A stretch of 26,652 nucleotides of DNA, taken from assembly GCF_004010195.1 (NCBI RefSeq), contig NC_057718.1, forward strand, positions 84,603,446 through 84,630,097. The letters run 5' to 3'. This document shows, piece after piece, positions 1 to 26,652 of this stretch. The notes under the pieces were generated by a model. That model was not told where the DNA came from and did no database searches. It saw only the letters and a program-made list of their open reading frames with translations. The stretch's first letter is position 1. The number at the start of each line of letters is the position of its first letter. This DNA comes from Chiloscyllium plagiosum. Lineage: Eukaryota. A program made the position numbers and the translations under genes.

Positions 1-301
1 ACCTCGTCAAATGCCTTATTGAAGTCAGTGTTCATGACATCCACTGCTGTGCCCTCATCGATCCTCTTCATTGCTACTTCAAAGAACTCAATAGTGAGAC
101 ATGATTTCCCACGCACAAAGCCATGTAACCATCCCTAATCAGTCCTTGCCTTTCTAAATACATGTAAATCCTGTCCCTCAGGATTCCTTCCAACAACTTG
201 TCCATCATCAATGTCAGGCTCACCGCTCTATAGTTCCCTGGCTTTTCCTTATCACCTTTCTTAAATAGTGGCACCACGTTAGTCAGCTTCCCATCTTCTG
301 G
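1..301 (-). mobile_element. CR1-clade LINE ORF2 (reverse transcriptase) fragment, decayed
   Basis: Minus-strand translation VPLFKKGDKEKPGNYRAVSLT...KLLEGILRDRIY is the typical CR1 RT N-terminal motif. The element resumes at 871 after an insertion. Confidence 0.9.
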
Positions 302-2485: not shown

Positions 2486-3457
2486 TTATTCTAAAAATCC
2501 ACATTTTCTGTTTGCTCAGCCTCTTCCTTTGATCACTAATGGAAATTAATGGGTCGAGGACTGAAATTGTCAATTCATTTTAGCACCAGGGTTAGGGAAA
2601 CATCTTAAATAGCAAAGAAAGTCCATTCTAGCCACCTCTTCAGTACTTGCAAGCATAATACGAACCCTAAATGTTTATGTAAGCAGACTCCTTTTTTTTA
2701 TGCTTAAATTCCTGTAATGAATTTGTAGAGTTGAACTGAGCATAGAGGTTAGTCCTGCTACTTTGATATGGTTGTAGGCAATTTTAATAAGTGGTGAAAT
2801 TCAGCATAAGTTGGGATTAACATATATGTTTGAATTTCAGTCATAAAAACATCAATTACACTCCTTTCTAACTGCTGTTGGATATTAATGATCCTCCTCC
2901 TTGACTTCAATGTTAGTTAGTGACTCAATGCTTTAATTTATAATCATCAATATATCCATGCAGATCTGTACATGTAGTACTTGAGGCTGGTGCCAGATTT
3001 TTGCTCAAAGCCAGGAATTGACATTGAGGCCCGATTAAAGGTCCAGTGACTACTGTGGACAGTCTAATTGAAACTTTCGTAAAGTACAATGTGCAAGTCC
3101 AAGTGTGTTACCCCTTTTTGAAGTGTGGTATTGGTGCAATAATTATATCCTTTGTTTCTATGGTTGCATATGCTTAGGCATATTATTACCCTTTTATAAA
3201 TTTCATTTCTCTTTCCTCCTCTACCCTTTTCAGTCAGACATGTTCATTAGTAATTTTAGCTGTTCAAAATTCTCTGGACATTTCACACTACATGTATTAG
3301 CCAAGATTGACCTTCAGAATCTTTGTATCCTTATCTTGGATTCTTACTACAAAAAAGTTTTCCTCTAATCTCACACTTGGGTGCCAATGCCCCTCTATCC
3401 ATTAAAGTTCCATTCTTGCCTAGTTTTTTAATATTGAGTTTAGTAATATCAGTAGTC

Positions 3458-3675
3458 TTTGAGGAGAAAGTGAGGTCTGCAGATGCTGGAGATCAGAGCT
3501 GAAAATGTGTTGCTGGAAAAGCACAGCAGGTCAGGCAGCATCCAGGGAACAGGAGAATCGGCGTTTCAGGCATAAGCCCTTCTTCCTGAAGAAGGGCTTA
3601 TGCCCGAAACGTCGATTCTCCTGTTCCCTGGATGCTGCCTGACCTGCTGTGCTTTTCCAGCAACACATTTTCAGC
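3458..3675. mobile_element. Non-coding fold-back PLE (family A) terminal-repeat insertion with 14-bp TSD
   Basis: Inverted arms 3497-3585 and 3588-3676 (89 bp, 2 mismatches, 2-nt spacer). Direct repeat TAATATCAGTAGTC at 3444-3457 and 3676-3689. Confidence 0.9.
3583..3617 (+). ncRNA. Minimal type I hammerhead ribozyme motif (family A), intact core
   Basis: CUGAAGA (3586-3592), A, GGGC-UUAU-GCCC stem II, GAAAC (3606-3610), GUC triplet (3611-3613); only a short UC/GA helix I. Confidence 0.85.
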
Positions 3676-5046
3676 TAATATCAGTAGTCACTGACAGATT
3701 CAGAGTGCCCTGTGCATAAATAGAAACAGTGCCCTATTGTAGTTGGAAATTGTTAAGCCCATGCCAAAACTGGAAGCAATTAGAAGTTAATTGATTAACA
3801 ATGTTTAAAATATTGTGAACAGTGCATCAGGGAGTGCTTAGTGTGAAACATTTTAAAATGTTCTGGTTTGGTCATGAGCCTTAACAATTTTGGCAAAATA
3901 CTAAATGGCTTTTTGTCATTAGAACGAAGGCTGCATGTGACAGTAAGATGCTCTGACATAACTTAGAAGTAGATCAGAATTGGTGCAGCTGATGTACATG
4001 AGCATGGCTAAGAAATTGAATTGTTTGCATCAGTATAAAAACATCTCTCTACTTGAACCTTTTTTTTAAAGTACAGAATTTTATCTGTGATTTTGGTACT
4101 TTTGAGCTTGTAGGAAGACAAAACCATTCAACAACTAATGCATATTTTGAAGATTTATTTTAAATGATGTTTGCATTTATGCAAATTGTTAACTTGTTTA
4201 ATGTGTATGTTTTGCCTTTGGAGTGGATATTCTTTTGGAAGAAATTGGTCTGAGGTTAGAGTATTTCTAGCAGGGAAGCTAAGTACTTTAGTCTTGTACA
4301 AGTGTAAGAGGTTTACAATTACCTCTGCCATTTTTGTGTACCAAAACAATAGAGATATTTATTGAAACTGGATTTTTAAAAAAAGAGTAGGGAATAGAGT
4401 ACAATGTTTGTCTGCTGGGTACCTTCCACCACTCAGAACAAGTTTCTTCGTGTCCAGTCTTCATTCTATTTCTTCTAAGTTACTTTCCTCTAGAATAGAA
4501 ATATCTGCTTAGTTTGCAGGGAAATTGTAATCCTGAAGGAAATGTGAATTGCCTGATTTCATCAGCAACTTGTAGGTTAGTACTGATATTAAGTTATTGA
4601 CTTTGACCTTGTTTTTGAGCTTGTGTTGGCATGTAAATTGCTGATACAGATGCCTTGAAACTTGCAGATAAGTACAGTTGCATTATTTTTGTTTTAACAG
4701 TTGATTAGCTGAACAATTTATACATAACCTTTTTGTTTAAATCCTAGTTGAATAGGAACCACTTTGCATTTCAGTCTGCTGACCGTTAATTACTGTGCCT
4801 GACTAGGGTTTTTAGGGGTAGAACAAGTTTGTCTGTTTTGGGTTAGAGGGAATATTTTGAAGATAAAAATGTTTGATTCATGGTATGAGCTGAGTACAGT
4901 GGATTTCAGTTTGGCTTCAATTTTTGTGACATGGTTCTGTTTTAGGAAAGAAAAAGCTTATCATGGTAAAGTAGATCACATCTCATTGCGTGTGTAATTT
5001 TTGTTTTGGCATAGGCTAAATTATATATTATTTTGGTTTTCAATAG

Positions 5047-6639: not shown

Positions 6640-7455
6640 CAGTACCCTCCACCTCATCCTACTTATCACCTGTGCTTCCGCCCTTGTCCCTTCCCATCAT
6701 CCTCAACAGTGTGATTGGGTCTCCCTTGGCCTCAACTTTGCATCACACCAGCCTCTAGTGGATCATTCTCCACCATTTCAGACAACTCCGGTAGAGCTCC
6801 AGCCATCACCAAACAGATGTTCCCCTCACTCCTGTTTGTATTTTGCAGGAATTGTTCCTTCCAGGATACCCTAATTCATTCATTGACCACTGATACAACA
6901 TCCCCTTCCCACATAACTGCTGAAGTGCAATCCCTGCCCCTTTACCTACTTACTGTTTGTTATCCAAAGGCTTAAATAGTCTGTTCCAGTAAAGCAGTAT
7001 TTCACCTGTACCACCTCCAATATTGTATTCGCTGCACCCAATGTGGCCTACTCTACACTGGAGAAACCAAACCAGACTGGGTGATGGCTTTGCAGAACAT
7101 CTCCAATCTGTGTGCAAGTGTGACCCTGACCATGCCATAGCCAGCCATTTTAATACAGATTCTGGATCAGTGGTGCTGGAAGAGCACAGCAATTCAGGCA
7201 GCATCCAACGAGCTCGTCGGATGCTGCCTGAATTGCTGTGCTCTTCCAGCACCACTGATCCAGAATCTGGTTTCCAATATCTGCAGTCATTGTTTTTACC
7301 TCATTTTAATACAGAGTCTTGCTTGTGTGCCCACTTGTCTGTCCTCTGTTTGCTGTAGTGTTCCAGTGAATCACAGTACAAAACTCTCATCTTCAGACTA
7401 GGCACTTTACAACCTTCTGGACTTAATATTGAGTTCAGCACCTTCAAAATGTGAA
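6640..7455 (+). mobile_element. Decayed Penelope-like element, GIY-YIG endonuclease region
   Basis: 7021-7105 reads YCIRCTQCGLLYTGETK..RLGDGFAEHL across a frameshift (PLE GIY-YIG with CxxC). Interrupted by the 7160-7301 insertion. Confidence 0.8.
7160..7301. mobile_element. Spacer-less palindromic PLE (family A) terminal-repeat insertion with 14-bp TSD
   Basis: Arms 7156-7212 and 7213-7269 (57 bp, 1 mismatch) centred on GAG|CTC. CATTTTAATACAGA is repeated at 7146-7159 and 7302-7315. Confidence 0.9.
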
Positions 7456-10263: not shown

Positions 10264-10283
10264 ACTTCAGGCTCTCTGCCTTT

Positions 10284-10318
10284 GTTCTGATGAAGGGCTT
10301 TTGCCCGAAACGTTGATT
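10284..10318 (+). ncRNA. Hammerhead ribozyme motif (family A), intact core
   Basis: CUGAUGA (10287-10293), A, GGGC-UUUU-GCCC, GAAAC (10307-10311), GUU; helix I weak. Confidence 0.8.
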
Positions 10319-10635
10319 TTGCCTGTCCTCGGATGCTGCCTGAATTGCTGTGCTCTTCCAGCACCACTGATCCAGAATCTGGTTTCCAGCATCTGCAGTC
10401 ATTGTTTTTACCTCGTTGATTACTACCATTATAGGGCAAGCCAAAGAAAGAACAGCCAGGGAATTCCTAGAAGCATGGCACTCATCCACAAACTCCATCA
10501 ACAAACACATCGACCTGGACCCAATATACCGGCCACTACAGCGGACAGCTGAAACTGACAACCGGAAGCGGCAGGGACAGGCCACTATAAATGCTGGAGG
10601 AAACACCACAGAAGCGCTTCACAGGAGGCTCCCAA

Positions 10636-10675
10636 GCACTGAGGATGTCACCTAGACAGGGGACGCAACGTTTGC
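10636..10675 (+). ncRNA. Hammerhead motif (family B), probably inactivated
   Basis: GCA-CUGAGGA-U-GUCACC-UAGACA-GGGGAC-GCAAC-GUU-UGC; GAAA is mutated to GCAA. Confidence 0.7.
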
Positions 10676-10756
10676 AACAAAAATGTCCAGCTCAGCGAAC
10701 AGAACCACAACAACGAGCACCCGAGCTACAAATCTTCACCCAAACTTTGAAGGTGC

Positions 10757-12486: not shown

Positions 12487-12557
12487 GCATTAGTGGTTCA
12501 GTGGTAAAATGGTACCCTGCCATGTGGCAGGCTTGGGTTTGATTCTCAGCAAATGCA
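12487..12557 (+). pseudogene. tRNA-Gly(GCC) pseudogene
   Basis: 71 nt collinear with the remembered vertebrate tRNA-Gly-GCC, about 15 substitutions. Anticodon loop CTGCCA is retained, B box GGTTCGA has become GGTTTGA, anticodon stem is broken, no CCA, and a T-run follows about 10 nt downstream. Confidence 0.85.
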
Positions 12558-12701
12558 TAGGACTCTTTTCCTTGCCTCCTTGGGGCTTGCTTGTGGTACA
12601 GGGTAGTAGGAGAAAGTGAGTACTGCAAATGCTGGAGATCAGAGTTGAGAGTTTGGTGCTGGAAAAGCATAGCAGTTCAGGCAGCTTGCAAGGAGCAGGA
12701 G

Positions 12702-12737
12702 AATTGACATTTCAGGCATAAGCCCTTCGTCAGGAAT
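12702..12737 (-). ncRNA. Hammerhead motif (family A), partly degenerate
   Basis: Minus strand AUUC-CUGACGA-A-GGGC-UUAU-GCCU-GAAAU-GUC-AAUU. Confidence 0.65.
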
Positions 12738-14292
12738 GAAGCTTGTGGGCCAGGGTGCTAAGAGATAAATGGGAGGGAGTGGGGTTGGGGGGGAAAGGAG
12801 CTGAGAATGCAATAGGTAGATGAAGGTGATAGGGTGGAGTGGGACAGATGGCAAAGACAATGGATAGGTTAAGAGGGCAGTGCTGAGAAGAGAAGCCCAC
12901 ATCTGGTGCAATGGATACAGTAGATGACATTTGTGGAGATGCAGATAAATTTGTTGGATGTGGAAGGATCCTTTGGGGCCTGAGATGGAGATGAGAGGGG
13001 AGGTTTGGGTGCAAGTTTTGCACTCCCTTTGGTGGCAGGGGAAAATGCCAGGAGTGGGCTGGAGGGGGTGTGGATCTGATAAGGTGTCGTAGAGGGAATG
13101 GTCTTTCTGGAATGCTGATGGGAGTGGAGAAGGAAATATATCCCTTATCTGTTTGCAGATGGTGGAAGTGGCAGAGGATGATGCGATGTGTACAGATATA
13201 GGTGAGGACTGGGGGCATCTGTTCTTGTTGCATTGAGTGATGGGGTTCAAGGGAGAAGATGGGCTGGAGGGCATCGTCAAACACATGGGAGGGGTAATTG
13301 CAGTCGTTGAAGAATGAGGCCATCTGGCATTTTCTTTGGTGGAACTGGTCCTCCTGGGAACAGATGAGATATCGGAATTGGGAATAAGGGATGGAGTTTT
13401 TACAGGAGGCAGGATGGGAAGAGGTGTAGTCCAGGTAGCTGTGGGAGTCCATGGGTTTGTAGTAGATGTCTGTGGTTAATTGGTCGCTGGGAGATAGATC
13501 CAGGAAGGGGAGGGAGGTGTCCAAGATGGTTCAGGTGAATTTGAGGTCAGGGTGAAAGGTGTTGGTGGAGTTGATGAACTATTGTGGGAGCATGAAGTAG
13601 CGCTGATAGTCGTTGATGTAGTGAAGGAAAAGGTGGAGGATGGTGACAGTGTAGCTGCGGGAGATGGATTGTTTCATGTACCTGACAAAGAGGCAGGCAT
13701 AACTGCAGCCCATGTGGCTGCCATGGCCACCCCTTTGGTTTGGAGGCAGTGGGAGTATTGGAAGGAGAATTTAAGGGTGAGGACCAGTTCAGCCAAATGG
13801 GTGAAGGTGTTAGTGGAAGGGTGCTTGTTGGGACGGCGTGAAAGGAAAGAAACGGAGGGCTTGGAGGCCTTTGTCATGGCGGATAGATGTGTACAGGGAC
13901 TGGATGTCCATGGTGAAGATAAGTCTTTCTTTGAGGTGGTGAAGGGCATGGGTGGTGTCCCAAACGTAGGTGGAGAGTTCCTGGACTAAGGGAGACAGGA
14001 CGGTGTCAAGGTACGCAGGGATGGGTTCAGTGGGACAGGAGCAGGCTGCGACAGCGGTTGGCCAGGGAAATCAGGCTTGCAAATCTACCGTAGGAGGTAG
14101 TATTGGGCAGTGTGGGGTTGCGGGCAGTGATTTAGGAGGCTGTGGGTAGGAGGTCCCCAGAGGTGATGATGAGGTTTTGGATGGTCTGGGAGATCGTTTG
14201 CTGATGGGCGGTGAGGTCATGGTCGATGGGGCGGTAGGAGGAATGTGAGAGTGGTGCCTAGTTTCAGCAGTGTAGAGGTTGGTTCTCTCTCT

Positions 14293-14462
14293 CTCTCACC
14301 CTCTCACCCTCTCACCCTCTCACCCTCTCACCCTCTCACCCTCTCACCCTCTCACCCTCTCACCCTCTCACCCTCTCACCCTCTCACCCTCTCACCCTCT
14401 CACCCTCTCACCCTCTCACCCTCTCACCCTCTCACCCTCTCACCCCCCCCCCCCCCCCCCCC
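14293..14462 (+). repeat. Perfect (CTCTCACC)x19 tandem repeat followed by C20
   Basis: 8-mer repeated over 14293-14444, poly-C at 14443-14462. Confidence 0.95.
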
Positions 14463-15838: not shown

Positions 15839-17042
15839 TTGCAAGGGTGGGCGGTTGGAGTGGGTAAGGGTGTTGGAGGGGGTAGTATCCTTGGACTGAG
15901 GGGCCTCTGTTCAAGATCAACCTGTTCCAGGGATGTGTATAACATCTCTGAACAGATTGATTAGGAAAATAGGTTAAATTAATAACTGCCAACTGTACAA
16001 CCATTGGGGGAGATTACTATAGATGAGCTGGAGCAGAGGGTGTGTACACAAATGGAGATTTTGGCAGCAAGTAACTGTGGAGTGGAGTGGTGACCAGTTG
16101 CATCTGACCAATTCCTCCTGTCTGTCCACAGCTGTGTGATTGTTCAACTGCTTGGGAGCCATCTTGTGGGTGTGAATGTTCAGGCAGAAAGTGTTGGACC
16201 TCAAAAGGCAGGAACTGTCAATTTCTTTATCCCTCCAGTAATAACATCTAAAGCTTGCAGGAAACCAGTTTGTTTTCCCTCATCAGTTACTGTAATCTGT
16301 GGCACTGTAAGGAGGTCAGAGACCTTTATTAAAAAAAGGTGTGAACCATTCACCCTGTGTCCTGTATGCAAGTGAATGTGTGCCTGGAGAAAAGATCCAG
16401 AAGCAACATTCTAATCAGCAAAGGAATTATCACGGCAAACCCTGTAATGAGGGATCTCCGAACAGCTTTCCCAGTATTTCCCCCTGACCGTGACACCCAC
16501 CTTTTTTCCTCTGTGTAGAGAATGTGTTTATAAAGAGCTTCGTTTTGACAAGTAGTTATGTTGATAGGTCATTACTGTTTCTGTACTTAAGAAAAACCTA
16601 TTTGTAATAAATAGTCAATGTTCCATGCTTTTTTGACAATTTAAATATATTTTAACTTTGTTTTTGGTAATAGTGGCTTGATCTTAAGCATACTAAAGTG
16701 AAGTGTGTAACACTAAATTTCATGTTTTTTTTAAAAACATTTATAGTTACGTGTATCATGAAGCTAAACTAATCAAAATGACAAATTGTTTCAAATGAAT
16801 GTTTGGGAGACCACAAGAATACCCAAGGATATATGAATGTTGATTTTCTTCTGATTTAAGATAGACAGTAATCACTAGTTCTGTACCTGAGCCAGAGTCA
16901 GATACTGGTTTTTCTTTCTGCTTAAAATCTGTTTGTGAGCCATGACTCTTGTATCAAAACAGAATGATCAAAGTTTGTGTAAAGATTTGTAGCTCGGGTA
17001 CTCCTTGTTGTGGTTCTGTTCACCGAGCTGGGAATTTGTGTT

Positions 17043-17082
17043 GCAGACGTTTTGTCCCCTGTCTAGGTGACATCCTCGGTGC
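17043..17082 (-). ncRNA. Hammerhead motif (family B), inactivated
   Basis: Minus strand GCA-CCGAGGA...GGGGAC-AAAAC-GUC-UGC has two core substitutions. Confidence 0.65.
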
Positions 17083-17412
17083 TTGGGAGCCTCCTGTGAA
17101 GCGCTTCTGTGATCTTTCCTCCGGCATTTGTAGTGATTTGAATCTGCCACTTCTGGTTGTCAGTTCCAGCTGTCCGCTGCAGTGGCCGGTATATTGAATT
17201 CGACTGGGACAACAACACTATTATAGGACAAGCCAAACCGAGAACAGCCAGGAAATTCCTAGAGGCATGGCACTCATCCACAGATTCAATCAATAAGCAC
17301 ATATACCGGACACTGCAACGGACAGCTGGAACTGACAACCGGAAGCGGCAGATTCAAACCACGACAAATGCTGGAGGAAAGATCACAGAAGCGCTTCACA
17401 GGAGGCTCCCAA

Positions 17413-17452
17413 GCACTGAGGATGTCACCTAGACAGGGGACGAAACGTCTGC
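17413..17452 (+). ncRNA. Minimal type I hammerhead ribozyme motif (family B), intact core
   Basis: Helix I GCA/UGC; CUGAGGA (17416-17422); stem II GUCACC-UAGACA-GGGGAC (one mismatch); GAAAC (17442-17446); GUC (17447-17449). Confidence 0.85.
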
Positions 17453-19006
17453 AACACAAGTTCCCAGCTTGGCGAACAGAACCACAACAAAAACAGAATG
17501 ATATATCAACCAGTTGAATAAACTATTTGATTCTTGACATGTTGGTGTATTGACTTACTTACAATATAATATTGTTTCAGAGGAATCTTTGATTTAGATT
17601 TGCCTTGTGCTGCTCAGGAACATTAGGTTTTAGACACTGAAGGGCTGAGCTGTGCAAACAACTGATTTACGTGATGTGCCATCATTTAAGAGGTTTAGGG
17701 ATTTACTACCACAATTGTATTAGTTATAAAATAATAGAGCCACTCAACTTGATATATTTTTAAGTTAGTTCAGTGTGACTGTGCAGGACAAATCATTTTG
17801 AAGTACCATCCTTTTATACATTTTTGTCAAAAATGCAATATCTTAAAAATTGTAATGCTGAAATACCAATAATTAAAAGCCAAACTGAGATACTTTTTAA
17901 GAGGTTCTGTCCAACAAAACTATTTTAATGCATGCAAATATACATTTTGACGAGGGTATTTGATCACAACATTTTAAAAGGTTTTCAAAAGTACAGCTAA
18001 TTGTCATTCAAATGTTAAAAAGATTTTAAAAAGCAAAACATGCCCTTCAATTTTGCTCTGTTCACTAACTATTATTTATTTTAAAGTAATTTGTTTAAAT
18101 AAAATGGTAGTCAAGATTTAGACCATCGTTCATGCTGGCACTTAATATGCTACCTTGGTTAGCTACACTTGACTGCATAGTTTACTGACCACCAACATCC
18201 ATGTAAAATTATAACATGGGTAGAACATAATGGCCTTTGAGCCTGCTCTGCCATTCATTTAAAGTCTTGGAATTTATACTACTTCCTGTTTCATTCTTTT
18301 ATGAATGTCTGTCTCTGAACACAGTATTCAAATGTTTTTCACCATTTAAAAAACTTGCACTCAATTAGTAAGAATAGAAAATTAAAAACCTTCCTTGCAT
18401 ATACAGCATTCTACAGGGAGTCCATTTTAAATTGTTAAAGTAAGCTCTCTTAAAACTATTTTTTACCTTGTAGTTGCTTCTCACTTTAAAGTTGGTGCTT
18501 TATTTCCTTTTTGTCCTTATTTTGAATGCCACTTTCAATGTTAACATCCTTTTTACTACTTGTTGCCTCATGTCACTTGTCAGCAGCAAGGCCTTTTGAT
18601 TCTGCTAGAGTTGGGACTGTTTGACCTTTATTCGCAATCTATTTTTAAAAAATAACTGAGCTGTGGTATAAACTTGGATATAAACTTTGTCTTTTTATTT
18701 CTCTATGCATCCATGTGAGTTTAGTGTAGCTGAGAAGCCATTTTTTTAAACTGTACCACTGATACATTAGCTGAGGAATTTGTACTGTACTATCTTTTGT
18801 AAAAAAAAACTTTACAAGCAGAAGGCCTGCTTTCTCTGGAATTTTCCATGTTTTGCAAGTTACTTTAGCTACGAATACATGCTGTATATAGAATGGTTTT
18901 TCAATACTTACATTTGCTTTTCTGGACAAAAATTGCTTTTGGGAACCGAACTTAGCTTTAACATTGAATTTCACAGGAAACCATGCTTCATTTAAAATTG
19001 TTTCAT

Positions 19007-19296: not shown

Positions 19297-22161
19297 CCAA
19301 GTCATTATTTAAAGTAATTATTTTTCAGGATTGTAATTTTCAAAGAGGATACTCTCCTTGCTTCACCTATTATATTATTGTTCATTCTTAAACTGCCTGT
19401 TTCCAACAGCTTTACTACTTGAGCTTGCTTTTCCCTTCACTTTAATTTGTCAGCAAACATGTGCTGCCTTCAAAGTGGCAAGTATGAGGCACTAACAATG
19501 GTCCTGAGGGCACTCCACTTGTATACCTTTATTTCTCTACTTACTCCACTTTTCTACTTTCTGCTTCTCTGCCTCTTAGTTGCAAGCTGACAGTTGCAAT
19601 TCAATTTTAATGCACTGCAGTTCTTTTTCCTTTTTGTTTCTTTCCCTGAGTGTATGAGTGAACAAGAAAACATCTAGGAACACTACTAGAGCCACTTCGT
19701 TGTGGCCTTTTAATTGTCTTCACCCTTGCACCTGCAACTACATTTACTGAACTAGTAATTTTATACCTTGAAAGTATTATCACATCAGCATAATGTGTCA
19801 GATGACAAAATGGTGCACAGCCTTTACAAGGAAAAGGCATATGCAAATTATTGTGAATCACATCATAAGATGTGCTAACATGAACATTCTTTGTCCTATT
19901 TGAAGTTATTACTTCATACTTTTGTTTTCTCGACAAAAGCTGTGCAGCAGGGGTATAGGTGCTTAGAATCCTGTAAACTTGGCATGTTTATATTTTTTGA
20001 TTAAACACGTGGTCCAACTGTCCTGATCAGTGTCTAAGCTATAGTGTCTGATGCTGTCAGTCAGAAAAGTTTATGGCTGAAATTTTAATGCAGTGTCCTA
20101 AAAACTAAATGTTAAAGTCCATGCAGAGATCCAAATGGAAGCATTAGCTATCATATTTTAAATCTTAAATCCTGGCCTAAATGTTTCAGTGGATGAATGT
20201 GAAAAGGTGAGGTGAGTGATTGGGATTCTACTCCATGGGCAAGTTAAATGAGGAACCTTTTGGGTAAATAACATTGACTTGTCCATAGTTTCTGACTCAG
20301 ACTCTGAAAGGGTCCTAAGGTGCAGTGTGATTGTTCAGAAACACTAAGTTCCACATGTAAATCAGGGCATCCTAATCTGGTCTCTGACTTATTTCTGAAC
20401 TAAAAGGACAAACTTTGAAATCATTCCTCACATAATGTTGTCTGTCTGTTTTGGGGAGGTGGGGGAATTAAATAAAATGGAACACTTTTTAAGAGGAAAA
20501 ACTGAGCAGGTCAGACATTTGTAGAGAGAGGAACCATTATCGTTTGATCTTCTATCAAAACTGGAAAACATTGGAACCCATGCCATGCATTCTTCACTGG
20601 AAAGGAGGGAATATTTGGAACCAAGAAACTTGGCATGTTCTCAACCTTTTTCCTTATACTTCCAATGAAACCTGAGGTGCTGTACTTCCCTCTTTTAATT
20701 AGGCACATTACAGCTTCTGAACTCTGCCCTTTTTTTAATGGCTGCTGTTCTAGCTTTTCTCATTGCATCCAGACCCACTTGTTTTTATCCGATAATCAGC
20801 ATACTTTTCCCTGCACCTTGATTATTTTCATCATTAATAATCTTTTTGCATTCCATCCTGTATGCCTTTCCCTATTGTTTCTTCACATGCTCACCCACCC
20901 CTTTTAAATAAAAGCCTTCCTTTAAAATCTGCTGATCTTTACAACTTTTTCACCTCCCTCACCCGCCTCATCCAAACTGCTATGCCCAATGAGTACTTCC
21001 GTCAGATTCTGTTTTTCAGATTTTCAGCAGCTCTAAAACTTCAATGAAGGTTCTACCAGTTTGGGTAGCGTCATCTTTGAACACAGGTGAATGAACTTGA
21101 CCCAGAGTTGCCTTTCCTGTCTATACTATATACAGCAAAAATTTTATAATCCTGCACCTCTGGAGCCAAGAGTGTGCTGATTAATCAAATATACTGAATG
21201 ATCACTGGAAAATCACTAGAAACGTAATGCGGGGGTATACACATTGCTGTGTAATTTATTTACTGTAAATAATTTTAAATGAAATGTTGCCTGACACAGA
21301 ACTTGTCAGTAGAGCACCTTCTCACTTGCAAATGACTACTCTGACATCGTGAGGATTGTGACAATAAGTAGACTTCCTGTATTTAGGTATATGCCTATTG
21401 TCCATTTATCGAAGGTGCTGGTTAAAATGGTTTGCACTTTTATATACTGAAGCATGGATTTTATTTTTTAAACTCAACAGAACTCTAGTTTGTGTAGCAG
21501 TTTGCTGTAGTTGTGAGCAATAACACAATGGCTAAAGATAAGTTAAATTCTATTTTCAAAACAAAAGTGAACTTTTGCATATTGAATCAATAAATAAAAT
21601 CTTTACATTTACCTCCCATCTGATTTTGATTTTTTTTCTTAAATGTGACTTGATTTGAACTGTTGAATAGTCCATGAATTCCTTTCCTCATGCACTTTGT
21701 AGTAGTTGAAACCGTTGAAATTAAACTTAAATGTTAAGTTTAATTCTGCAGGGCGTGTTTTTGAATTTCAAGTTGAAGATAGTACTGCTTTTGCATCTAA
21801 AAGCAATAAAAACTAATATTGTGAAAAATTAGATCTTATTTGTACAGTCTCTATTGTTCCTTGGTAGCAATTGGTTAATGAAGACATCAAGTCAGTTCAC
21901 TTTTTTATAATAAATTACTCCCATTTACAGTACTCTTGTTCTTGGGCTTCTAGTTTCCTCTGCACAGACTGTGAACTCAAGGTGAACTTGCTGGACCTTT
22001 CAGGTTGATAGAAACAGAATCTCTATTGTTATAGTGCAGGAGGGGGGCATTCAGCTCATCTTGTCTGCAAAGGCTGTCTGAGAGAGCAACTTGCTTAGTG
22101 CCATTCTCATGCTTTCTCAACTCTGCACATGTGTTCTTGTTAGATGGCTACAATAATGCAT

Positions 22162-22197
22162 ATTCCTGATGAAGGGCTTTTGCCTGAAACGTTGATT
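22162..22197 (+). ncRNA. Hammerhead ribozyme motif (family A), core intact
   Basis: AUUC-CUGAUGA (22166-22172), A, GGGC-UUUU-GCCU, GAAAC (22186-22190), GUU, GAUU. The closing pair of stem II is G-U rather than G-C. Confidence 0.75.
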
Positions 22198-22292
22198 TTC
22201 CTGCTCCTCGGATGCTGCCTGATCTGCTGTGCTTTTCCAGCACCATTCTAATCAAGACTCTGGTTTCCAGCATTTGCAGTCCTTGTTTTTAC
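22162..22292 (+). mobile_element. Solo 131-bp PLE family A terminal-repeat insertion with 14-bp TSD
   Basis: CTACAATAATGCAT at 22148-22161 and 22293-22306; the insert begins at the HHR motif. Confidence 0.9.
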
Positions 22293-23119
22293 CTACAATA
22301 ATGCATGCCCATTTTCCATTGCATTTCAGGCAGGTACTGATCTCAAAGTAAATGTTGTAATACATCATCACTTGCCTTTATTTGCATCTTTGCATTTTTA
22401 TTACAGTACAACAATCATGAGACACTTTAATGTAATTGTTGCCTAACTTGATGGAAGTCAGTTTAAAAATAACCTACTCGGGCTTATTGCCTTTGTGTCT
22501 GTTCCCAAATACCAGCTGATAAACAACATGCATCAGTCACTTTGTAACACATCTGAGGTGAATGAGTAACTTGGTCTATATACAAACTAGCAGTGCAGTC
22601 TTATTCACTGGCTTTTTCTGCTGAACAAAGTACCTGATTGTCAATAAGCACTCAGATCCTACCTTCAACATAAACCAGTGAAATTTTCAAGGTTTAGTTA
22701 GCAAGCATTACTCCTTTGGCAACGCAGTCAACCAATACCTGAATTGAGTTGAAGAGCAATTATGTACAGAGGGGAAGGAATATCAGCTGCCATTGACAAT
22801 TGACAATGTATGTGATTGCATGAAAATATTTGATAGTACACATTGATTACCAAATTGTTTAGTTATCTCATAATTGAGATTATTGTTTTATTTTAAACAG
22901 CTGAAGTATTAAGGGAAGGTTTGATTGTAAAGTGTAAAATTGGAGAGGAAAATAATCCTCAAGACAGGATACTGGCTATCTGAAACAAAAACAAAGTGCC
23001 GGAGAAACTCCGCATGTTTGAGTTTCTCAAGTTTTTTTAAATTTGATGTTTTGGTGAAAATTAAGAATTATTTTCACCTACTATCTACCTCAACTGTTCA
23101 CTCCCTTCATTGTCAAGGC

Positions 23120-24741: not shown

Positions 24742-25820
24742 AACTATATCAGTGATTTGGATGAGAATATACAAGGCATGATTAGTAAGTTTGCTGATGA
24801 CACTAAAATAGACAGTATTGTGGATAGTGAGAAAGGTTATCAGAAATTCCAGCAGGAGCTTGATCAGCTGGGGAAGTGGGCCGAGAAATGACAAATGGAG
24901 TTTAATATAGATGAGTGTGAGGTCTTGCATTTTGGAAAGTCAAATCAAGGTAGAATTTTCATGGTAAATGGTAGTGCCTTCAGGAGTGTCGTGGAGTAGA
25001 GTGATCTTTTGAGTTTAGGTTCATGATTCTCTGAAGTGGAGTCACAGGTAGACAAGGCAGTGAAGAAGGCCTTTGACACACTGGCCTTCATCCGTTGGGG
25101 CATTGAGTATACAAGTTGGAAGGTTATGTTGCAGTTATACAGGACGTTGGTGAGTCCGCACTCGGAGCATTATGATCACTTTTGGTCACCTTGCTATAAG
25201 AAGCATGTTATTAAGCTGGAAAAAAGCAGAAGAAATTTGCAAGGATATTGCCTGAACTCAATGGTGTGAATTATGGGGAGAGGTTGGACAACTAGACTTT
25301 TTTTTTCTTCAGAGCTTAGGACACTGAGTGGGGAACCTTTTTATAGAAGTGTATAAGATCATGAGACATGGATAGGGTGAATGCACTCAGTCTTTTTCCC
25401 AGGCTTGGGGTATTGAGGACTAGAGTGCCGCAGTTTAAGGTTAGAGGGGAAAGAATAAAAGGGAACCTAAAGGGCATTTTTTTTAAAAACCATTTGGTAT
25501 GCATATGGAATGAGTTGCCAGTGTAAGTGGTTGAGGTGGATACATTAACATTTAAAAGGCATTGGACAAATACATGGATAGGAAAGGAATAGAGGATATG
25601 GGAGTAGAGAGTATGGGTGCTGGAACAGCACATCAGGTGAGGCAGCATAGAGGAGCAGGAGAATCGATGTTTTGGGCATAAGCCCTTTATCAAGAATCAT
25701 ATGGGCCAAGTGCAGAGGATATGCACTTCGATGGATTTGGGTGAAGTGTAGAGAAATGGGGTTAACGTGGACAGACATTTTGGTTGGCATGGACCCATTT
25801 GGGCCAAAGGGTACCGTCTC
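24742..25820 (+). mobile_element. CR1 LINE 3' fragment, decayed
   Basis: YISDLDENIQGMISKFADDTKI, LYRTLVSPHSEHYDHFWSP; several stops. Confidence 0.9.
25603..25698 (-). mobile_element. Short PLE family A terminal-repeat insertion with degenerate HHR, inside the CR1 3' end
   Basis: Minus strand AUUC-UUGAUAA-A-GGGC-UUAU-GCCC-AAAAC-AUC; ATATGGG is duplicated at 25596-25602 and 25699-25705. Confidence 0.75.
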
Positions 25821-26292: not shown

Positions 26293-26470
26293 GATAGTTA
26301 AGGAATGTTGCGATCCCAAGCTGGCTTTTAATGCTGAGGTGCTATTGCTTTTACTCAGCAATTTGAGAACCAGGGGAATCCTTAACAGGATTTTTGACGA
26401 AGGGTGAGTGGTGACCTTGGTGGTTTATAAAATCATGAGGGGCATGGGTAGGGTAAATAGGCAAGGTTGG

Positions 26471-26652
26471 AAATGTGTTGCTGGAAAAGCGCAGCAGGTC
26501 AGGCAGCATCTAGGGAACAGGAGAATCGACGTTTCGGGCATAAGCCCTTCTTCAGGAATGAGGAAAGTTTGTCCAGCAGGCTAAGATAAAAGGTAGGGAG
26601 GAGGGACTTGGGGGAGGGGCGTCGGAAATGTGATAGGTGGAAAGAGGTCAAG
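26471..26652 (-). mobile_element. Young PLE family A terminal repeat, runs off the window end
   Basis: Nearly identical to 3503-3585, continuing into purine-rich upstream sequence. Confidence 0.88.
26524..26559 (-). ncRNA. Minimal type I hammerhead ribozyme motif (family A), intact
   Basis: Minus strand AUUC-CUGAAGA-A-GGGC-UUAU-GCCC-GAAAC-GUC-GAUU. Confidence 0.85.

What the first reader, a model, noticed from the sequence alone, without database searches (positions are those of the whole stretch)
22148..22306. 131-bp non-coding, ribozyme-headed mobile unit with its own TSD
Seen: the insert contains only the HHR plus about 95 nt of terminal repeat, between perfect 14-bp TSDs. Its 5' end is ATTCCTGA, the start of the HHR. 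The 25603-25698 insert and the fold-back point of the 3458-3675 element fall within a few nt of the same boundary, so three separate short insertions share it. This boundary is about 30 nt upstream of the predicted cleavage site, so it is not simply a self-cleaved RNA end. Inference: either a non-autonomous PLE-mobilised mini-element (retrozyme- or SINE-like), or a structure-determined RT stop or template switch at the ribozyme.
Basis: partly seen in the sequence, partly recalled or inferred. Interest (0 to 1): 0.7.

Follow-up and report, generated by a model that had tools for sequence, protein, structure and literature searches.

The report
Penelope leader run-off stub in shark
This 131-base insert is the end piece of a Penelope-type jumping gene in a shark-like genome, one of tens of thousands that begin at the same base, likely because the element's RNA starts there and reverse transcription runs off its end, which would make these stubs a record of how such elements insert.

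Summary
In detail: 131 bp between perfect 14-bp duplications, starting at a minimal hammerhead 32 nt before its cut site. It is not an independent element but the terminal piece (+1..+131, the 5' leader) of a Neptune-type Penelope-like retrotransposon. In a 1.6-Mb evenly spaced sample, 91 of 141 arms reaching +5 end within -5..+5; only 1 of 44 ends in the 40 nt at -55..-16. An older related family does the same (46 of 69); a Poseidon-type family with its own hammerhead does not (0 of 18). Short copies mix with long ones on the tree, and no tandem or permuted units were found, so a retrozyme or SINE is unlikely. No hairpin lies upstream of +1. +1 is initiator-like, about 31 nt behind an A/T island, so it is likely the RNA start, reached by RT priming internally near +95 or +131. 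Of 65 palindromic insertions, 48 pair one long with one short end. Against: no significant cap-G excess, no RNA start mapped, no pile-up at the Poseidon family's presumed start. The scan reported the same reading earlier on this genome and others.

The parts
22148..22161 (+). left target-site duplication (14 bp)
22162..22292 (+). the insert: positions +1 to the long 3' end of the Neptune-type element's leader / pLTR end, subfamily A1 (edge ambiguous to 22294)
   Evidence: 95% identical to the subfamily majority sequence
22162..22197 (+). minimal type-I hammerhead (helix I 22162-22165 / 22194-22197, core 22166-22172, stem II 22174-22185, GAAA 22186-22189, predicted cut after 22193); this copy has GTT for GTC and a G-T closing pair in stem II
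   Evidence: motif as described in PMC4209133
22162..22165 (+). +1 boundary: initiator-like start (YY-A-N-W-Y-Y, consensus recalled), inferred RNA 5' end
22293..22306 (+). right target-site duplication (14 bp)
25603..25698 (-). second stub, +1 to the short 3' end, one extra G before +1, 7-bp duplication 25596-25602 / 25699-25705
3458..3675 (.). head-to-head palindrome: minus arm +7..+131 (long end), plus arm +2..+95 (short end); 14-bp duplication 3444-3457 / 3676-3689
7160..7301 (.). palindrome of the same family joined at +42 (long + short end); 14-bp duplication 7146-7159 / 7302-7315
12609..12828 (-). family copy that runs upstream past +1 to -90
26468..26652 (-). family copy that runs upstream past +1 to the window end
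10265..10413 (+). family copy that runs upstream past +1 into an N gap

Best explanation
The insert is a by-product of a Neptune-type Penelope-like retrotransposon: a DNA copy of the first ~131 bases of the element's leader, likely made when reverse transcriptase primed inside the leader and ran off the RNA's 5' end at the transcription start. Shown: the stub is the terminal piece of longer copies that encode RT, a C-X4-C-XX-C linker and GIY-YIG; the same piece precedes the ORF (ATG at +169); 3' ends fall at two sites (about +95 and +129..131); 5' ends pile up at -5..+5 with a sharp upstream edge. Inferred: +1 is the Pol II start (A/T island at -33..-29 plus initiator). The endonuclease would nick both target strands 10-16 bp apart. 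RT would start at the internal sites, as shown in vitro for the anole element. On the 5' copy of those sites it has only 95-131 nt to copy before the template ends. One cDNA gives a simple stub like this one; two cDNAs, one per strand and one per start site, joined head to head give the palindromes. The stub lacks the upstream A/T island and the sequence behind +131, so it is predicted to be a dead end. That it is a Penelope by-product: about 0.9; that a transcription start sets the boundary: about 0.6.
For: Long copies share >1.4 kb upstream with PLE RT, thumb, C-X4-C-XX-C and GIY-YIG motifs. Homologues carry PF00078 and some PF01541; the best named is Chiloscyllium punctatum at 94%. Sample of 160 x 10 kb: stop rate per nt 0.003 (+40..59), 0.008, 0.018, 0.099 (-5..+5; 91 of 141), then 0.0006 (-55..-16; 1 of 44). 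Non-inverted arms alone: 38 of 89, p 1.7e-25. The peak is present in all three subfamilies and in older family B (46 of 69). TSDs in 13 of 36 simple peak copies and 43 of 65 palindromes, 0 of 300 shuffled flanks. A/T motif start at -33..-31 in 29 of 33 A1, at -31 in 13 of 14 A2, at -33..-29 in 8 of 13 A3 and at -33..-28 in 6 of 8 B long copies. +1..+4 reads ATTC, AGTC or AGTT: variation only where the initiator allows it, mostly paired with the helix I partner. Palindromes: 48 of 65 long+short, 1 long+long, 0 short+short. The short-end arm reaches further 5' in 31 and the long-end arm in 17, so neither arm is simply a copy of the other. Internal initiation at two sites and extension of both strands: PMC11167929. 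Promoter with initiator in the pLTR: PMC2377424, PMC3846280.
Against: No significant excess of a cap-derived G before +1 (13 of 33 against 69 of 226, p 0.20). No RNA start was mapped: the one run with reads showed no place where many molecules begin, and such a library is no real test. The Poseidon-type family has ATAAA 46-52 nt before its hammerhead core (15 of 20 motif hits) yet no 5' ends near its presumed start. Run-off is therefore not general; my account (its RT start sites lie in the translated ORF) is untested. The A/T island is a weak TATA match in family A (YTTAT), and copies within a subfamily are not independent: four lineages only. +1 is also the first base of hammerhead helix I, so promoter and ribozyme cannot be separated within these families.
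Confidence: 0.6

Rival explanations
1. RT stops or switches template at +1 because of the folded hammerhead or a protein bound to it, on an RNA that continues upstream.
For: +1 is exactly the first base of helix I in families A and B. The anole hammerhead is protein-assisted (PMC11167929), so a protein contact there is plausible.
Against: RT has already copied the whole ribozyme when it reaches +1. The 40 nt upstream fold at 0 to -5.3 kcal/mol. The Poseidon-type family passes its hammerhead in 18 of 18 copies (p 5e-8). Ends trail off downstream of +1 and almost vanish upstream.
Confidence: 0.15
2. Longer cDNAs are made and then cut or resolved at +1 by the element's GIY-YIG endonuclease or a host nuclease.
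For: The anole endonuclease prefers 5'-ATT-3' and cuts its own pLTR region; family A begins ATT. Endonuclease resolution has been proposed for the tail (PMC8557442).
Against: Family B begins AGT and has the same peak. Other ATT sites in family A give no peak (+34: 1 end; -55..-16: 1 end).
Confidence: 0.12
3. The 131-bp unit is a self-propagating non-autonomous element (retrozyme- or SINE-like) with its own RNA, mobilised in trans.
For: Own TSDs and a fixed length; about 39,000 simple long-tailed stubs by extrapolation from 17 in 1.54 Mb. A few head-to-tail joins exist in public contigs (22293 to 22161, 2 contigs in each of 2 of 4 runs). The nearest relative of this copy is another short one (96%). 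Retrozymes derive from pLTRs (bioRxiv 10.64898/2026.07.22.740005).
Against: Short, inverted and long copies are mixed on the tree (35 changes, shuffled 35.1; few columns) and by nearest neighbour (35 of 74, shuffled 41.3). Stubs occur in all three subfamilies. No head-to-tail pair among 288 arms. The unit starts at +1, not at the cut site +33 as a processed circle would.
Confidence: 0.08
4. Palindromes and the boundary come from self-priming (snap-back), for example on an antisense template as proposed for rotifer Penelope.
For: Arms of one insertion are more alike than arms of different insertions (6.6% against 9.3% divergence, 42 pairs). The model is in PMC3846280.
Against: Either arm can hold sequence the other lacks (31 and 17 of 65). 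The long+short rule is unexplained. The peak is also present in non-inverted copies. One shared RNA or later gene conversion explains the arm similarity as well.
Confidence: 0.05

Closest known systems
5'-truncated and inverted-pLTR insertions of endonuclease-bearing Penelope-like elements, Neptune type (PMC8557442, PMC3846280; passages read)
   Same: RT + Cys linker + C-terminal GIY-YIG, hammerhead in the pLTR, 5' truncation, head-to-head inverted copy, optional 30-40 bp tail on one end, TSD of variable length.
   Different: Here truncation is not spread out: about two thirds of arms reaching the leader's first base stop there. A pile-up of this kind was not found in searches.
Anole Poseidon element PAc (PMC11167929; parts 1-2 of 4 read)
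   Same: Two internal RT start sites that define the tail; both target strands extended; minimal hammerhead.
   Different: In PAc the hammerhead and start sites lie in the ORF start; here they lie in a leader before the ATG at +169. The Poseidon-type family of this genome shows no pile-up.
Non-LTR retrozymes (PMC7229834 passages; bioRxiv 10.64898/2026.07.22.740005 parts 1-3 of 5)
   Same: Short, non-coding, type-I hammerhead, pLTR-derived, long TSDs.
   Different: Those are tandem repeats, typically with canonical hammerheads, and make circular RNA. This is a monomer with the minimal hammerhead, starts at +1 rather than at the cut site, and has no lineage of its own.
Retroviral minus-strand strong-stop DNA (recalled, no call)
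   Same: Works like it if the best reading is right: priming near the RNA 5' end and run-off at the cap site.
   Different: Primed by nicked target DNA and so integrated directly; no tRNA primer, no LTR transfer.

Membership tests
EN+ Penelope-like element, Neptune type | Single ORF with PLE-type RT and C-terminal GIY-YIG in parent copies | tested here: met
   motifs read in broken frames of L281-L283; homologues with PF00078 and some with PF01541; direct Pfam scan of 7 fragments found nothing
EN+ Penelope-like element, Neptune type | CX2-5CxxC linker between RT and endonuclease | tested here: met
   CHHRNCKTC in L029/L283; definition in PMC8557442. Shared with Nematis
EN+ Penelope-like element, Neptune type | RT phylogeny places it in Neptune rather than Nematis | not tested
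EN+ Penelope-like element, Neptune type | Minimal hammerhead in the pLTR | tested here: met
   core, extra base at 9/10.1, palindromic ACGT, short helix I; definition in PMC4209133
EN+ Penelope-like element, Neptune type | pLTR sequence both behind the ORF and before its start; optional 30-40 bp tail; inverted copies | tested here: met
Non-LTR retrozyme | Tandem head-to-tail units | tested here: not met
   0 pairs among 288 arms; a few joins in public contigs
Non-LTR retrozyme | Canonical type-I hammerhead (6-bp helix I, loop contacts) | tested here: not met
   helix I of 2-4 bp, no helix III loop; the 2026 preprint also admits minimal forms
Non-LTR retrozyme | Abundant monomeric linear or circular RNA | not testable with these tools
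   poly(A) single-cell reads only
SINE-like non-autonomous family | Own master lineage distinct from the autonomous partner | tested here: not met
   low resolution (131 columns, 74 rows)
SINE-like non-autonomous family | Own internal promoter | not testable with these tools
   needs a reporter assay; the A/T island lies outside the stub

The most novel reading that the evidence does not exclude
Shark Neptune elements start their RNA on the first base of the hammerhead, so the ribozyme is a protein-triggered switch that cuts off the capped first 32 bases. A protein dimer primes the two target strands at two fixed sites in the leader. The roughly 240,000 stubs and palindromes in this genome are then integrated strong-stop DNAs that spell out the whole Penelope integration reaction.
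Probability: 0.3. Interest if true: 0.7.

Novelty: new variant of a known kind. Interest (0 to 1): 0.45.

Why it matters
How Penelope-like elements make pseudo-LTRs, inverted ends and one-sided tails, and what their hammerhead does, is open. A single-base pile-up of 5' ends, a long+short rule for palindromes and a second family in the same genome that lacks the pile-up give sharp predictions for the existing in vitro system and for 5' RACE. It also warns annotators that such TSD-flanked stubs and palindromes look like SINEs, retrozymes or MITEs but are likely by-products. The single insert itself is an old, decayed copy with no sign of function.

Tried and rejected
Rfam: no hammerhead hit, 4 weak matches elsewhere. 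Pfam on 7 broken frames: nothing. Subfamily artefact: aligning a long copy to the wrong subfamily falsely gives +1, so each arm was aligned to the best of three subfamily majorities, and only arms at least 85% identical and away from edges or N were counted (240 of 288). Hammerhead cut site: 6 ends at +33 against 1.3 per nt (P 0.002), but +19 and +25 have similar spikes, and CpG decay or helix I microhomology can produce it: inconclusive. Cap-G test not significant. Template jumps to other parts of the element: 2 of 7 lie at +1/+2, not enriched. Empty site: none among the joints shown in 4 contig sets (10 joints not shown); organism D has both junctions at the orthologous site. No RNA holder on record was listed; one raw run gave no reads, the other showed both strands and no start site. 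The insert folds no better than shuffles (z 0.16). The bacterial promoter scan does not apply to an animal. One genome search returned nothing because the words are too common. The sample could not be enlarged beyond 1.6 Mb, so the Poseidon control stays at 18 copies. Look-up of earlier findings by sequence was empty. Supplement text of PMC11167929 had no hits for my terms and its figures are not held; its Fig. S2 and the preprint's closed supplements may bear on novelty.

Full report
Observation. The window has identical 14-mers at 22148-22161 and 22293-22306 around 131 bp. The insert opens with a minimal type-I hammerhead: ATTC, CTGATGA, one extra A, a 4-bp stem II, GAAA, CGTT, with the predicted cut after +32, where +1 = 22162. 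This fits the minimal motif of Penelope-like elements (PMC4209133, parts 1-2 of 4 read). In this copy the cut triplet is GTT rather than GTC. The inserts at 25603-25698 and 3458-3675 end at +1 and at +2/+7 and have their own duplications. Three other family copies in the window run on upstream, and one palindrome is joined at +42.

What it belongs to. The genome is 3.56 Gb and the family is very abundant. Many of the 30 best matches continue upstream, two by more than 1.4 kb. There they encode, in broken frames, PLE RT motifs (PADKG, PKIHK-RPI, YIDD), a C-X4-C-XX-C linker and GIY-YIG (motif names recalled). One RT fragment finds 463 proteins among 519 candidates, the best named from sharks and rays, with RT and in some cases GIY-YIG domains. 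The Cys linker marks Neptune and Nematis (PMC8557442 passages); no tree against named clades was built. Other copies continue behind +131 into the ORF, whose ATG is at +169. So +1..+131 is the element's leader, which also closes the 3' pseudo-LTR.

The boundary. I took 160 evenly spaced 10-kb stretches from eight contigs (1.6 Mb, 55,765 N). Of 432 arms, 288 belong to family A (three subfamilies) and 144 to an older family B; 240 A arms passed the identity and edge filters. Of 141 arms reaching +5, 91 end within -5..+5; of 44 reaching -16, one ends within the next 40 nt. The stop rate rises from 0.003 to 0.099 per nt toward +1 and then collapses. Non-inverted arms alone give 38 of 89 in 10 of 194 positions, p 1.7e-25. 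Duplications confirm 13 of 36 simple peak copies and 43 of 65 palindromes, against 0 of 300 shuffled flanks. Family B gives 46 of 69. Copies chosen only by their 3' part show the same tendency. Extrapolated: about 88,000 simple stubs and 150,000 palindromes.

Why +1. It is not the cut site (+33 has only a doubtful excess). It is not an RNA obstacle: the 40 nt upstream barely fold, and a Poseidon-type family in the same sample passes its hammerhead in 18 of 18 copies. The one-sided shape suggests a template end with some trimming. +1 is the A of an initiator-like motif (consensus recalled) and lies 29-33 nt behind the only A/T island of a C-rich stretch in all four lineages (I tested this after seeing the lead in e1-9518082). 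Penelope promoters with an initiator in the pLTR are published (PMC2377424 and PMC3846280, passages). The anole element starts RT inside the RNA at two sites and extends both target strands (PMC11167929, parts 1-2 of 4). Here 3' ends are bimodal at about +95 and +129..131, and 48 of 65 palindromes pair one of each. Either arm can reach further 5' (31 and 17), which simple snap-back does not give.

Against this reading. The cap-G test is not significant. No RNA start was observed. The Poseidon-type family has a TATA-like ATAAA but no pile-up at its presumed start; that its start sites lie in the translated ORF is my untested explanation. +1 is also the first base of helix I, so a ribozyme-linked cause is not excluded.

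Own element or by-product. Short, inverted and long copies intermingle (tree: 35 changes against 35.1 shuffled, 131 columns only; nearest neighbour 35 of 74 against 41.3). No head-to-tail pairs were found among 288 arms, though a few exist in public contigs. Retrozymes are tandem and make circular RNA (PMC7229834 passages; bioRxiv 10.64898/2026.07.22.740005 parts 1-3 of 5). No empty site was seen; a related organism carries the insertion.

Novelty. Truncated, inverted and tailed Penelope insertions, their hammerheads and internal initiation are known. A pile-up of 5' ends at the leader's first base and the long+short rule were not found in searches (listings only; open-access library). The scan's earlier notes reach the same reading on this genome and others; they are unchecked and are not counted as support. 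Verdict: new variant of a known kind, interest 0.45.

Noticed in passing
window 16969-17489: Head-to-head palindrome of a second, Poseidon-type Penelope family with a 13-bp duplication (16956-16968 / 17490-17502), its own hammerhead on both arms, and again one long and one short end.
   Followed up: partly
window 10425-10747: Truncated Poseidon-type copy directly behind a family A copy (10265-10413).
   Followed up: partly
window 12487-12557: tRNA-like sequence (Rfam 31 bits), probably a SINE head.
   Followed up: no
window 14285-14460: (CTCTCACC)n array followed by a C run.
   Followed up: no
window 22210-22280 and family majorities: A predicted stem (GATGCTG / CAGCATC) enclosing a GCTG/CAGC hairpin recurs in A1, A2, A3 and family B between the hammerhead and the long 3' end; candidate binding site for the element's protein.
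   Followed up: partly
L281 (element +1..+169): In this copy the leader is stop-free in frame from +1 into the ORF, without an ATG before +169.
   Followed up: no
L191-L220: Several copies consist of the ORF's 5' part joined to a second leader unit, which suggests template jumps to another RNA.
   Followed up: partly
window 22968-23020: Fragment of the older family B.
   Followed up: no
window 21800-22700: The insertion is shared with coded organism D, whose flanks differ by about 5%, so it predates that split.
   Followed up: yes
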